Virus genome (UHGV): UHGV-0171993
Length of the DNA: 33,990 nucleotides
Source of the DNA: a virus
Strand: one strand, 5' to 3'
Positions 20,692 to 24,400 of this stretch are shown one piece after another. Made by a program: the position numbers and the translations under genes. The first letter of the stretch is position 1; the number at the start of each line of letters is the position of its first letter. The notes beneath the pieces are model-generated. The model saw nothing but the letters and a program-made list of their open reading frames with translations, did not search any database and was not told the origin of the DNA.

Positions 20692-21078
20692 ATGCTTCTG
20701 AAACAGGGCACGTTTAATTATGAAAAACAGTCCGTGGTGCTCAGTGAGCTGTCCGGGCTGCAGAGAATTGAATATCTGGCGTTTGTTCAGCAGCGAACGG
20801 CAAAGTTTGATGCACAGGAGGGAGAACTGCCGGAGGCTGAACGACAGATTGCTTTTCTGCGGATGGGGATGGATATCAATGCCTGGCTGGTTTCCCGCTC
20901 ACTGTGGAATGCGGATCAGTCTCAGGATGTGGAGGCACTTTGCGTATCCGTTATTACAACATGGTCGTATGATGCCCTCGGTGCGGGGGCGGAGATGGTT
21001 CTGTCGCTGAGCAGTATGGGGGCCATTGAGAATGCCGGGGATGATGATCATGAGGCGCTGACGCCGGAAAAGTCCTGA
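20692..21078 (+). CDS. G: Tail assembly chaperone G
   Basis: Position between V and the tape measure gene; GGTGGAG RBS; alternative ATG at 20689. Confidence 0.7.
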   Translation: MLLKQGTFNYEKQSVVLSELSGLQRIEYLAFVQQRTAKFDAQEGELPEAERQIAFLRMGMDINAWLVSRSLWNADQSQDVEALCVSVITTWSYDALGAGAEMVLSLSSMGAIENAGDDDHEALTPEKS

Positions 21079-21416
21079 CGCGGGAAATGCAGTTTGTCAT
21101 GCGGCTTGCCCGGGAGTTCCGGCGGGCAGACTGGCGGCGGATGCTGTCGGAAATGTCGGCCACTGAGCTTGGTGAGTGGGGCGATTATTTCCGGATGCAG
21201 AGCTTCAGTGATGTGTGGATGGATGCGCAGTTTGCCTCGCTGAAGGCATTGATCGTGAGAATGGTGTCCGGCAGCAGTGATGCTGCGGTGGTTGATTTCA
21301 GCCTTTTACCGGAAGAGAACGGGATACCGGAGCGAACGGACGAAGAACTGATGCATCTTGGGGAAGGTATTTCCGGAGGTGTGCGTTATGGACCAGATAG
21401 CCAACCTGGTCATTGA
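21072..21416 (+). CDS. T: gpT-like extension, expected as a G-T fusion by -1 ribosomal frameshift
   Basis: The -1 frame is open from 21054 and runs to 21416 overlapping the H start; candidate shift site G GAA AAG at 21066-21072 just before the G stop. Confidence 0.5.
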   Translation, partial: VLTREMQFVMRLAREFRRADWRRMLSEMSATELGEWGDYFRMQSFSDVWMDAQFASLKALIVRMVSGSSDAAVVDFSLLPEENGIPERTDEELMHLGEGISGGVRYGPDSQPGH

Positions 21417-24400
21417 TTTAGGGATTGATGCGGCAGAGTTTAAAAATGAAATTCCCCGTATCAAAAACCTTCTGAATGGTGCAGCCAGCGATGCAGAACG
21501 ATCTTCTGCCCGTATGCAGCGTTTTATGGAGCGTCAGACTCAGGCCGCCCGGCAGACAACGCAGGCGGCGTCTTCGGCTGCAACAGCCGCATCCGTCCAT
21601 GCGCAGACGGTGGAGAAGAGCGCACAGGCTCATGAACGCATGGCCAGCGAGGTGGAGCAAACCCGCCAGCACATGGAGGCGCTGAGCCAGAAAATGCGCG
21701 AGGAACAGGCACAGGCCATGGCTCTGGCGGAGGCTCAGGATAAAGCGGCTGCCGCGTTTTATCGTCAGATTGACAGTGTGAAACAGGCCAGTACGGGGCT
21801 GCAGGAATTACAGCGTATTCAGCAGCAGATCCGACAGGCCAGAAACAGTGGCGGGATTGGTCAGCAGGATTATCTGGCGCTGATTTCTGAGGTTACGGCG
21901 AAAACCCGTGTTCTTACACAGGCTGAGGAAGAGGCTACCCGACAGAAAGTGGCGTTTATCCGTCAGCTTAAAGAGCAGGCAACCCGCCAGAATCTTTCTT
22001 CTTCTGAGTTGCTTCGTGCTAAGGCTGCCCAGCTGGGGGTAAGCAGTGCTGCAGAAGTGTATATCCGCAAAATGGAGCAGGCAGGAAAAGCCACGCATTC
22101 GCTGGGGCTGAAAAGTGCAGCGGCCCGCCGGGAGATAGGCGTTCTGATAGGTGAACTGGCCCGCGGCAATTTAGGGGCGCTGAGGGGATCCGGGATAACG
22201 CTGGCTAACCGTGCCGGATGGATAGACACACTGATGTCACCGAAAGGTATGATGCTGAGCGGGGTTATTGGCGGTATTGCCGCGGCCGTCTATGGTCTGG
22301 GTAAAGCCTGGTATGACGGTCAGAAGGAGGGGGAAGAATTTAATCGCCAGCTGTCGCTGACGGGGCATTATGCCGGAGTCACTGCCGGGCAGCTGTGGAC
22401 GCTCAGTCGTGCTATTTCCGGGAATGGTATCACGCAACATGCTGCAGCCGGTGCGCTGGCTCAGGTGGTGGGGAGTGGTGCATTTCGTGGAAACGATATC
22501 GGTATGGTGGCGAGAGCTGCCGCACAGATGGAGCGATCGGTTGGTCAGTCGGTCAGCGATACCATAAATCAGTTTAAGCGGCTGAAGGATGATCCTGTAA
22601 ATGCCGCGAAGGCTCTGGACAATGAGCTGCATTTTCTTACTGCCACTCAGCTTGAGCAGATACGCGTCCTTGGGGAACAGGGACGGTCCAGTGATGCTGC
22701 ACGGATAGCTATGTCTGCACTGGCAGAGGAAACCGGTCGGCGTACTGCGGATATTGATAATAATCTTAATGCGCTGGGCAGTACGCTGAAATATCTGTCT
22801 GATTTGTGGAGCCGTTTCTGGGACGCGGCCCTGAACATCGGTCGTGAAGATTCACTGGATGGGCAGATAGCTGCCTTACAGGAAAAAATTCAACGGGCGA
22901 AAAAGTTTTCGTGGACGAATTCATCCACTCAGGTGGAGTACGATCAGCAGCGTCTTAACGATCTTCAGGAGAAAAAACGCCAGAAGGATTTGCAGGATGC
23001 AAAAGAGCAGGCAGAGCGGAATTATCAGGAGCAACAGAAACGCCGTAATGCTGAAAATGCAGCACTGAACCGGATGAATGAAACGGAAGCAGCACGACAT
23101 CAGCGTGAAATTGCGCGTATTAATGCCATGCAATACGCCGACCAGGCTGTCAGGGATGCGGCGATACAACGTGAAAATGAACGTTACGAGAAAGCCCTGG
23201 CATCCGGTAAGAAAAAAACACGCGAAACCCGTAATGATGAGGCCACCCGGTTATTGCTGCAGTACAGTCAGCAACAGGCACAGGTGGAAGGGCAGATTGC
23301 TGCTGCCAGACAGTCAGCAGGCATTGCCACTGACAGGATGACAGAAGCGCATAAACAGCTTCTGGCTCTGCAGCAGCGCATCAGCGACCTGGACGGGAAA
23401 AAACTGACGGCAGATGAAAAGAGTGTGCTGGCCCGTAAAGATGAACTGATTCAGGCACTGACGTTGCTGGATGTAAAACAGCAGGAGCTTCAGAAGCAGA
23501 CGGCACTCAACGAGCTGAAGAAAAAAACAATTCAGCTGACCAGTCAACTGGCTGAAGAAGAACGCGCTCAGCGTCAGCAACATGACCTGGATATCGCCAC
23601 GGTGGGTATGGGCGAACAGTTGCGGCAGCGGTATCAGGTACAACTGAGTCTTCGCCAGAAATACCAGCAACAGCTGGAGCAGTTGAGGCGGGATAGTGAG
23701 CAGAAAGGGACATATAACACGGATGACTACAGAAAGGCCGAGCAGGCGCTGACGGAGAGCCTGAACCGACAACTGAATGAGAATCGCCGCTACTGGCAAC
23801 AGCTTGAAGTTGTGCAGGGTAACTGGAAAAACGGTGCCATACGTGCGTTTCAGAATTTTACGGCAGAAGCGGATAACGCGGCAGGTACGGCTGAGCAGAT
23901 GTTTACAGCGGCATTTAACAGCGCAGGTAATGCACTGGCGACGTTCTGTACCACCGGAAAACTGAACTTCAAATCTTTTACCGCCTCGTTCCTTTCTGAT
24001 CTGGCAAAAATCATGTCGCAAATGGCCATGATGCAGGCGGTGAAGGGGATTGGTTCGGCGTTTGGCTGGGGGAGTGCAGCAGCTGCCAGCGTGACGCCAA
24101 ATGCGGATGGCGGTGTTTATCAGTCTGCTGATTTGAGTCGCTACAGTGGCACGGTGGTTAACCGTCCAACATTTTTTGCTTTTGCAAAAGGCGCGGGTGT
24201 GATGGGGGAAGCTGGACCTGAAGCCATTCTGCCACTGCGTCGTGGTGCTGACGGTAAGCTGGGGGTTGTGGCGGATATTGGTGGTTCAGGTATGGCGATG
24301 TTTGCCCCGCAGTACAACATCGAGATCAATAACGACGGCACGAACGGGCAGATAGGTCCGGCTGCCCTGAAGGTGGTTTATGATCTCGGGAAAAAAGCGG

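What the first reader, a model, noticed from the sequence alone, without database searches (positions are those of the whole stretch)
21050..21420. G/T programmed -1 frameshift with a non-canonical slippery site
The -1 frame is closed by a TGA at 21051-21053 and opens at 21054, then continues for 121 codons to overlap the tape measure start, while G terminates at 21076-21078. The shift must therefore occur within 21054-21075. The only shift-prone sequence there is G GAA AAG (21066-21072), which allows A-site Lys AAG to AAA re-pairing but is imperfect for the P-site tRNA, unlike lambda's G GGA AAG (recalled from memory).
Basis: partly seen in the sequence, partly recalled or inferred. Interest (0 to 1): 0.4.

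Follow-up and report, generated by a model that had tools for sequence, protein, structure and literature searches.

The report
Known lambda-type G/T tail-chaperone frameshift site
This is the ordinary programmed -1 frameshift that lambda-like phages use to make a small amount of a fused G-T tail-assembly chaperone. Its G_GAA_AAG slip site looks odd next to lambda, but it is the commonest version in this gene family and is already annotated in phages N15, phi80 and LLS.

Summary
The G ORF (20689-21078, Pfam Phage_TAC_2) is overlapped by a -1 frame. That frame opens at 21054, just after TGA 21051-53, and encodes a Phage_tail_T domain ending at TGA 21414-16. A -1 shift is possible only in 21054-21075, and the only shift-prone motif there is A_AAG inside G_GAA_AAG (21066-72).

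The heptamer sits at exactly the position of lambda's G_GGA_AAG, and the T-frame alignment with lambda, N15 and phi80 starts without gaps at its Gly-Lys. The same GGAAAAG, in the same frame, is annotated as the -1 slippery sequence in N15, phi80 (joined gpG-T CDS) and LLS.

Among 45 non-redundant relatives, 36 carry GGAAAAG and only 3 carry lambda's GGGAAAG. Four of the seven heptamer positions are invariant while the upstream flanks vary. I found no conserved downstream RNA structure. An SD-like GAGG lies 10 nt upstream, but it is not clearly enriched in the family.

The ATG at 21087 that RefSeq uses as the T start has no usable SD and is absent from 43 of 45 relatives.

One residual curiosity remains. 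In vitro work rates G_GAA_AAG as poorly slippery, yet it is the dominant natural site.

The parts
20689..21078 (+). Gene G, the tail assembly chaperone: 129 aa, 14.3 kDa, zero frame, stop TGA 21076-78.
   Evidence: ORF list. Pfam PF06894 Phage_TAC_2, E = 2.2e-37. Annotated as gpG in mEp460 and in RefSeq E. coli genomes.
21051..21053 (+). TGA that closes the -1 (T) frame upstream. It sets the 5' limit of the region where a -1 shift can occur.
   Evidence: Read directly from the sequence. In relatives the upstream T-frame stop lies 1-22 codons before the heptamer.
21052..21055 (+). SD-like GAGG, 10 nt upstream of the heptamer. It is a candidate stimulator only and is unproven.
   Evidence: GAGG at spacer 10. 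An SD-like tetramer lies at spacer 6-17 in 17 of 45 relatives, but the adjacent acid-rich control windows give 13 of 45, so the test is inconclusive.
21066..21072 (+). Slip site G_GAA_AAG. The zero frame reads Glu-Lys and the -1 frame reads GGA AAA (Gly-Lys).
   Evidence: Only Z_ZZN motif in the permitted interval. Same heptamer and frame annotated as the slippery sequence in N15, phi80 and LLS. Found in 36 of 45 non-redundant relatives, with 4 of 7 positions invariant.
21072..21416 (+). T segment read in the -1 frame after the shift: 114 codons plus stop TGA 21414-16. Fused to G residues 1-128 it gives GT of 242 aa and 27.2 kDa.
   Evidence: Pfam PF06223 Phage_tail_T, E = 1.8e-14. Gapless alignment with lambda, N15, phi80, LLS and HK225 T frames starting at the heptamer's Gly-Lys. 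Product sizes.
21087..21089 (+). ATG used by GenBank and RefSeq annotators as a stand-alone T start. It is probably not the functional route.
   Evidence: Annotated as the T start in mEp460 and by PGAP. The only SD-like sequence, GGGA, lies 1 nt upstream. The codon is Leu or another residue in 43 of 45 relatives.
21388..24462 (+). Tape measure gene H. Its start overlaps the end of T.
   Evidence: Pfam TMP_2, Tape_meas_lam_C and TMP_4. Start confirmed against the mEp460 annotation.

Best explanation
The window carries the tail module of an mEp460/cdtI-like lambdoid E. coli phage or prophage. Most ribosomes translating gene G terminate at TGA 21076-78 and make gpG (129 aa).

A small fraction slip back one base on G_GAA_AAG (21066-72). 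tRNA-Lys (anticodon mnm5s2UUU) moves from AAG to the better-matched AAA. The P-site tRNA-Glu moves from GAA to GGA and keeps pairs at positions 1 and 3, with a G.U at the middle position. Translation then continues in the -1 frame through the T domain to TGA 21414-16, giving a 242-aa gpGT fusion.

By analogy with lambda, the G part binds the tape-measure protein and the T part recruits the major tail protein. A low GT:G ratio is needed for tail assembly, and neither protein ends up in the virion.

What is shown: the gene anatomy, the homology, the positional identity with lambda's site, and the family-wide conservation of the heptamer. What is inferred: that the fusion is actually made here, its level, and the tRNA re-pairing geometry. 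No RNA stimulator is needed or detectable.
For: - Both frames are real genes of the lambda G and T families, lying between V and H.
- A -1 shift is confined to 22 nt, which contain a single shift-prone motif.
- The T-frame alignment with lambda, N15, phi80, LLS and HK225 begins without gaps at the Gly-Lys of the heptamer. Lambda has G_GGA_AAG at exactly that spot.
- GenBank records of N15 ('slippery sequence for -1 translational frameshift'), phi80 (joined gpG-T CDS) and LLS ('minus-one programmed translational frameshift site GGAAAAG') mark the identical heptamer in the identical frame. Slipping there gives stop-free fusions of 250-252 aa.
- A survey of one genome per species found GGAAAAG in 51 of 79 loci. 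Among 45 non-redundant contexts, 36 have it, the rest are N_NNA_AA(G/A) variants, and four heptamer positions are invariant while the upstream flanks carry less than 0.8 bit. The periodicity of variable sites switches from the G frame to the T frame at the heptamer.
- More distant relatives have A_AAA_AAG (Stx phages) or C_CCA_AAA (Vibrio phages) at the same position.
- 17 of 45 relatives have no ATG, GTG or TTG at all near the T-frame start, and none has one preceded by an SD at usable spacing.
- Plaque-forming phages (mEp460, Ayreon, Tritos, HannyBb, phi458) carry the same junction at 97-98% identity. All 82 close loci keep CCGGAAAAG.
- Literature: A_AAG is the most shift-prone tetramer in E. 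coli, and tRNA-Lys is the shifty tRNA (PMC4066793, PMC5009743). Re-pairing of tRNA-Glu on GGA through G:U has been proposed (PMC10885494).
Against: - There is no protein-level evidence for GT in this lineage or, as far as I could find, in any G_GAA_AAG phage.
- In a reconstituted E. coli system, AUG GAA AAG gave mainly zero-frame product and was used as the 'less slippery' control (PMC6924986).
- Tetramer motifs without a stimulator were barely above background in vivo: 0.147% against 0.112% (PMC4066793).
- I found no stimulator. The downstream fold has z = 0.01. The family consensus structure is -1.45 kcal/mol with no covariation. The upstream SD-like motif is not clearly enriched.
- The efficiency may therefore be well below lambda's few percent. 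It is not demonstrated that this level suffices, although the existence of viable phages implies that it does.
Confidence: 0.85

Rival explanations
1. T is made as a free 109-aa protein from ATG 21087, as GenBank and RefSeq annotate it. This could happen by termination-reinitiation after the G stop 8 nt upstream. In this reading no frameshift is needed.
For: - The ATG lies 8 nt after TGA 21076-78 and is present in all 82 close relatives.
- mEp460, cdtI and PGAP (in matching genomes, 1,846 of 5,426 complete E. coli genomes) list T as a separate CDS from this ATG.
Against: - The only SD-like sequence, GGGA, is 1 nt from the ATG, which is unusable spacing.
- The ATG is absent from 43 of 45 non-redundant relatives, and 17 of those have no start codon at all in that stretch.
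- The heptamer upstream of the ATG is far more conserved than coding needs explain.
- In lambda, the T domain works only when tethered to G (PMC5009743). Some free T could still be made in addition to GT; that would not replace the fusion.
Confidence: 0.06
2. The GGA-to-GAA difference from lambda is a disabling mutation in a decaying prophage. GT is no longer made and the tail module is dead.
For: G_GAA_AAG was far less slippery than G_GGA_AAG in vitro (PMC6924986).
Against: - The same heptamer is in 36 of 45 diverged lineages and in N15 and phi80.
- It is in plaque-forming isolates at 97-98% identity.
- Both ORFs are intact and all neighbouring tail genes are full-length.
Confidence: 0.02
3. 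The frame change is made at another place or by another mechanism. Candidates are transcriptional slippage of RNA polymerase on the A run, or a +2 or -1 shift at a different codon in the overlap.
For: The heptamer contains an A4 run. The mechanism has not been tested experimentally here.
Against: - Productive transcriptional slippage typically needs runs of roughly 7 or more A or T (established knowledge; reviewed in PMC5009743). Four A's are too few.
- No other Z_ZZN or X_XXY_YYZ motif exists in 21054-21075.
- Family variation keeps A_AA(G/A) but not a longer homopolymer, except in Stx phages.
Confidence: 0.03

Closest known systems
Phage lambda G/GT programmed -1 frameshift (Levin, Hendrix & Casjens 1993; Xu, Hendrix & Duda 2004, 2013, 2014)
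   Same: - Same gene order, V-G-T-H.
- Same Pfam families: PF06894 and PF06223.
- Shift site at the homologous codon pair near the 3' end of G, with the T frame aligning from Gly-Lys onward.
- No start codon requirement for T and no downstream structure.
   Different: The P-site codon is GAA (Glu) instead of GGA (Gly), so the heptamer is G_GAA_AAG and not the perfect X_XXY_YYZ G_GGA_AAG. T is only about 39% identical. The G stop lies 1 codon after the site rather than 5.
N15 genes 14/15, phi80 gpG-T, phage LLS genes 11/12, HK225 and mEp043 G/T
   Same: Identical heptamer GGAAAAG in the identical frame at the identical position. It is explicitly annotated as the -1 slippery sequence in N15, phi80 and LLS.
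   Different: T proteins are about 42-45% identical to the window's. Those phages have 5 G-frame codons after the site, against 1 here, and lack the ATG at T-frame codon 8.
Single-tRNA A_AAG / hexanucleotide NNA_AAG shift sites: IS1222 G_CGA_AAG, B. subtilis cdd A_CGA_AAG (Licznar et al. 2003, as reviewed in PMC5009743)
   Same: The shift rests mainly on tRNA-Lys moving from AAG to AAA. The preceding codon's tRNA cannot re-pair perfectly. Family variants such as G_GTA_AAG, G_GCA_AAA and A_GAA_AAG show that the P-site codon is free to vary.
   Different: Reporter data show A_AAG-type tetramers needed a pseudoknot stimulator for appreciable efficiency. None is detectable here.
E. coli dnaX A_AAA_AAG frameshift
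   Same: Same shifty tRNA-Lys on AAG. dnaX uses an upstream SD-like stimulator, and the window has GAGG 10 nt upstream of its site, a spacing I recall (not checked here) matches dnaX (PMC6924986, PMC5009743).
   Different: dnaX has a perfect heptamer and a strong downstream hairpin, and it shifts at very high efficiency (up to about 80% is cited). Here there is no hairpin, the SD-like element is not conserved across the family, and a low efficiency is expected.

Membership tests
Lambda-type G/GT tail assembly chaperone with programmed -1 frameshift | Two overlapping ORFs located between the major tail protein gene and the tape measure gene. | tested here: met
   V-like gene 19885-20631 (Phage_TTP_12 plus Big_2), G 20689-21078, T frame 21054-21416, H from 21388.
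Lambda-type G/GT tail assembly chaperone with programmed -1 frameshift | The upstream ORF is homologous to gpG and the downstream ORF, in the -1 frame, is homologous to the T part of gpGT. | tested here: met
   PF06894 at E = 2.2e-37 and PF06223 at E = 1.8e-14. Alignment with lambda, N15 and phi80 T frames.
Lambda-type G/GT tail assembly chaperone with programmed -1 frameshift | The downstream ORF lacks its own conserved translation start. | tested here: met
   The window has an ATG at T-frame codon 8 but no SD at usable spacing. 43 of 45 relatives lack that ATG and 17 have no start codon in the region.
Lambda-type G/GT tail assembly chaperone with programmed -1 frameshift | A slippery sequence lies in the short overlap, at a position conserved across the family. 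| tested here: met
   G_GAA_AAG at 21066-72 is at the same alignment position as lambda's G_GGA_AAG and the annotated sites of N15, phi80 and LLS.
Lambda-type G/GT tail assembly chaperone with programmed -1 frameshift | A GT fusion protein is produced at a low ratio to G and is required for tail assembly. | not testable with these tools
   This needs western blotting, mass spectrometry and genetics. The only support here is indirect: viable phages carry the same junction.
Canonical X_XXY_YYZ tandem-slippage heptamer | Both the P-site and A-site tRNAs can re-pair in the -1 frame with mismatch only at the wobble position. | tested here: not met
   A-site AAG to AAA is fine. P-site GAA to GGA mismatches at the second position (G opposite U35). 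Peng et al. describe this sequence as unfavourable for exactly this reason.
Single-tRNA Z_ZZN (A_AAG) / NNA_AAG shift motif | A_AAG in the zero frame, decoded by the single E. coli tRNA-Lys. | tested here: met
   A_AAG at 21069-72 is the only Z_ZZN in the allowed interval. A_AA(G/A) is invariant in 45 of 45 relatives.
Single-tRNA Z_ZZN (A_AAG) / NNA_AAG shift motif | An associated stimulator (downstream hairpin or pseudoknot, or upstream SD), usually needed for useful efficiency. | tested here: inconclusive
   No downstream structure: z = 0.01 and an alifold energy of -1.45 kcal/mol with no covariation. GAGG is present 10 nt upstream, but the family enrichment is not convincing: 17 of 45 against 13 of 45 in adjacent windows.

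The most novel reading that the evidence does not exclude
G_GAA_AAG behaves as a poor slip site in purified systems, yet it is the dominant natural G/T site in Enterobacterales prophages: 36 of 45 lineages, against 3 with lambda's 'perfect' site. This would be notable under either of two readings:
- These phages depend on an unrecognised stimulator. Candidates are the conserved nascent tail motif E-x-x-(T/S)-x-E-K, the GAGG found 10 nt upstream in a subset, or the nearby stop codon.
- They are tuned to a much lower GT:G ratio than lambda's roughly 1:30.

Either case would say something new about how weak shift sites are used and tuned in vivo.
Probability: 0.15. Interest if true: 0.4.

Novelty: already known. 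Interest (0 to 1): 0.12.

Why it matters
Biologically it adds little. The G/T frameshift is a textbook case of recoding, and this exact heptamer was marked in the N15 GenBank record and again in the phi80 and LLS records.

The practical value is for annotation. The same module occurs in about a third of complete E. coli genomes (1,846 of 5,426). In the RefSeq record I opened, and by the feature names in the 11 other top hits, T is listed as a free-standing protein starting at a non-conserved ATG, with no ribosomal-slippage join, so the real 242-aa GT product is missing from those records.

The survey also corrects a common impression. Lambda's perfect G_GGA_AAG is the minority form in its own family, and the imperfect G_GAA_AAG is the rule.

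Tried and rejected
- Downstream stimulatory RNA. The fold of 21073-21160 gives an MFE of -33.2 kcal/mol, equal to the shuffle mean (z = 0.01). RNAalifold on 29 GGAAAAG-bearing relatives gives -1.45 kcal/mol, 4 invariant pairs and no compensatory change. Rejected.
- Upstream SD-like stimulator. GAGG sits 10 nt upstream in the window and in 11 of 45 relatives at that spacing. However, neighbouring acid-rich windows have nearly as many SD-like tetramers (17 against 13 and 13 of 45), and the motif coincides with a conserved Glu codon. Left as inconclusive.
- Independent T start. No SD is present, and the ATG is not conserved.
- Decay mutation. Rejected because of the site's prevalence and its presence in viable phages.
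- Transcriptional slippage. The A4 run is too short.
- Heptamer count. GGAAAAG occurs 11 times in the window against 5.1 expected, so a motif count alone proves nothing.
- The search for homologous proteins with the fused GT sequence returned mostly odd chimeric or truncated clusters. It was of little use beyond revealing three rare in-frame deletion fusions.
- Papers not held by the library: Licznar et al. 2003, which measured NNA_AAG contexts, and Xu et al. 2013. I therefore could not obtain in vivo efficiency figures for GAA_AAG. I did not try to retrieve Xu et al. 2004.
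Full report
**What is in the sequence.**
The region lies in the tail module of a lambdoid phage or prophage. It is 97-98% identical to phages mEp460, cdtI, Tritos, Ayreon, HannyBb and phi458. The gene order is as follows:
- V-like tail tube gene at 19885-20631 (Phage_TTP_12 plus Big_2).
- A terminator-like hairpin at 20652-20669.
- G at 20689-21078 (PF06894, E = 2.2e-37).
- An overlapping -1 frame with PF06223 Phage_tail_T (E = 1.8e-14).
- The tape measure gene from ATG 21388.

The G frame ends ...CCG GAA AAG TCC TGA, with the stop at 21076-78. The -1 frame has TGA at 21051-53, opens at 21054, and runs 120 sense codons to TGA 21414-16. 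A -1 shift that joins G to T must therefore occur in 21054-21075.

Checking every zero-frame codon in that interval finds one shift-prone tetramer, A_AAG, inside G_GAA_AAG at 21066-72. Every factual statement in the finding is correct. The '121 codons' includes the stop.

**Is it more than chance?**
The heptamer by itself is not. GGAAAAG occurs 11 times in the window against 5.1 expected. The signal lies in where it sits and how it is conserved.

Lambda's proven site G_GGA_AAG and the window's G_GAA_AAG occupy the same alignment column. The T-frame translations of the window, lambda, N15, phi80, LLS and HK225 align without gaps starting from the Gly-Lys encoded by the heptamer in the -1 frame.

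All 82 close relatives fetched from IMG/VR and GenBank keep CCGGAAAAG. That set is too similar to be informative, so I surveyed one genome per species with a T-domain profile.

At the homologous position, 51 of 79 loci have GGAAAAG and 19 have GGGAAAG. About 16 of those 19 are identical lambda-DNA contaminant contigs. The rest are AGAAAAG, GGTAAAG, GGCAAAA and GGGAAAA.

After collapsing to 45 contexts below 90% identity, the counts are:

| Heptamer | Non-redundant contexts |
|---|---|
| GGAAAAG | 36 |
| GGGAAAG | 3 |
| GGCAAAA | 2 |
| AGAAAAG | 2 |
| GGGAAAA | 1 |
| GGTAAAG | 1 |

Four heptamer positions are invariant (2 bits) and two are nearly so. Most upstream positions carry less than 0.8 bit. 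The positions of low conservation switch from every third base in the G frame to every third base in the T frame at the heptamer.

More distant relatives carry A_AAA_AAG (Stx phages) or C_CCA_AAA (Vibrio phages) at the same spot. The family rule is therefore N_NNA_AA(G/A) at a fixed position, with the P-site codon free to vary.

**It is already annotated elsewhere.**
Three GenBank records mark exactly this heptamer in exactly this frame:
- N15 (NC_001901): misc_feature 'slippery sequence for -1 translational frameshift'.
- phi80 (FN582354): the same feature plus a joined gpG-T CDS.
- LLS (PQ299149): 'minus-one programmed translational frameshift site GGAAAAG' plus a joined CDS.

Slipping one base back at the last G gives stop-free fusions of 250-252 aa in those phages and 242 aa (27.2 kDa) here. 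The site is 'non-canonical' only by the X_XXY_YYZ rule. In this gene family it is the commonest form, and lambda's perfect heptamer is the exception.

**Mechanism.**
Established knowledge, reviewed in PMC5009743 and measured in PMC4066793, says that A_AAG is the most -1-prone tetramer in E. coli. The single tRNA-Lys (mnm5s2UUU) pairs poorly with AAG and better with AAA.

I infer that tRNA-Lys slips from AAG to AAA. The tRNA-Glu on GAA either re-pairs on GGA with a central G.U or contributes little. The G.U idea is raised for the same tRNA and codon in PMC10885494. The tolerance of GTA, GCA and GGA at the P-site codon in relatives suggests that P-site pairing is not critical.

I found no stimulator. 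The downstream 88 nt fold no better than shuffles (z = 0.01), and 29 relatives share no structure (-1.45 kcal/mol, no covariation).

The window has GAGG 10 nt upstream of the site, a spacing I recall (not checked here) matches the dnaX SD stimulator. Eleven of 45 relatives have an SD-like tetramer at that spacing. However, the neighbouring acid-rich windows are almost as rich in such tetramers, and the motif overlaps a conserved Glu codon. I leave this open.

**Evidence that cuts the other way.**
Peng et al. (PMC6924986) translated AUG GAA AAG in a purified E. coli system as their 'less slippery' control. They saw mainly zero-frame product, in contrast to G_GGA_AAG.

Sharma et al. found tetramers without a stimulator barely above background. 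The shift here may therefore be considerably rarer than lambda's few percent.

This does not argue against the frameshift, because viable phages carry this junction. It does make the natural predominance of the weaker site a small puzzle.

**Rivals.**
- *Free-standing T.* GenBank (mEp460, cdtI) and PGAP list T as a free-standing CDS from ATG 21087. The module matches in 1,846 of 5,426 complete E. coli genomes. That ATG lies 8 nt after the G stop, so some reinitiation is conceivable. However, the only SD-like sequence is 1 nt away, the codon is not ATG in 43 of 45 relatives, and 17 relatives have no start codon at all in the region. In lambda, T functions only as part of GT (PMC5009743).
- *Decay mutation.* This is excluded by the site's prevalence.
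- *Transcriptional slippage.* Four A's are too few for this to be plausible.

**Verdict.**
The biology is already known, so interest is low.

Two minor outputs remain. RefSeq and GenBank under-annotate the GT fusion for this very common prophage module. G_GAA_AAG, not lambda's G_GGA_AAG, is the typical site of the family, even though it is the weaker slip sequence in vitro.

Noticed in passing
window 20652-20677 (+): A strong terminator-like hairpin (GCCCCGG TTAT CCGGGGC, then TTTTTTG) sits between the tail tube gene V and gene G, in the middle of the late operon. The equivalent element is annotated as a rho-independent terminator in mEp460, Ayreon and N15. It may lower expression of G, T and H relative to V.
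   Followed up: partly
window 21052-21055 (+): An SD-like GAGG lies 10 nt upstream of the slip heptamer; it is GAGGTG in 55 of 82 close relatives. I recall this as the spacing of the dnaX frameshift-stimulating SD. It is present at spacer 9-10 in 15 of 45 non-redundant relatives, but it is not clearly enriched over the neighbouring acid-rich sequence.
   Followed up: partly
proteins P0001-P0003: Three database proteins (233, 215 and 212 aa, one contig each) are in-frame G-T fusions created by deletions around the G/T junction. They are constitutive GT without a frameshift. They could be real variants or assembly errors. I recall that in lambda excess GT is harmful to tail assembly, but I did not verify this here.
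   Followed up: partly
loci L140-L146, L148-L152, L162, L166, L167 (genome contigs survey): Contigs with junction context and T match identical to phage lambda, several of them short or low-coverage, turn up in assemblies of unrelated organisms, including Kitasatospora, Neobacillus, Oceanobacillus, Shewanella, Leeuwenhoekiella, Enterococcus, Pseudoxanthomonas and Tardiphaga. This is almost certainly laboratory lambda-DNA contamination of public genomes.
   Followed up: no
E. coli genome hits, e.g. L168 1038-1367; equivalent to window 21087-21416: RefSeq/PGAP annotates 'phage tail assembly protein T' as a stand-alone CDS with no ribosomal-slippage join; I confirmed this in one record. The module is found in 1,846 of 5,426 complete E. 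coli genomes, so if this holds generally it is a systematic annotation gap.
   Followed up: partly
window 15959-18211 (+): A 750-aa ORF overlaps the end of the portal ORF (14701-16206). From its sequence it appears to combine a ClpP/S49-type prohead protease region with the major capsid protein. I assume this is typical of the phage group, but I did not run domain searches on it.
   Followed up: no
non-redundant family alignment, positions -14 to +6 relative to window 21066: The C-terminal tail of G carries a conserved peptide motif, E-x-x-(T/S)-x-(E/G)-K, ending exactly at the slip site. Examples are EALTPEK here, EPVTAEK in N15 and EPVSAGK in lambda. It is unclear whether this reflects G/GT function or a nascent-peptide or mRNA effect on shifting.
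   Followed up: no
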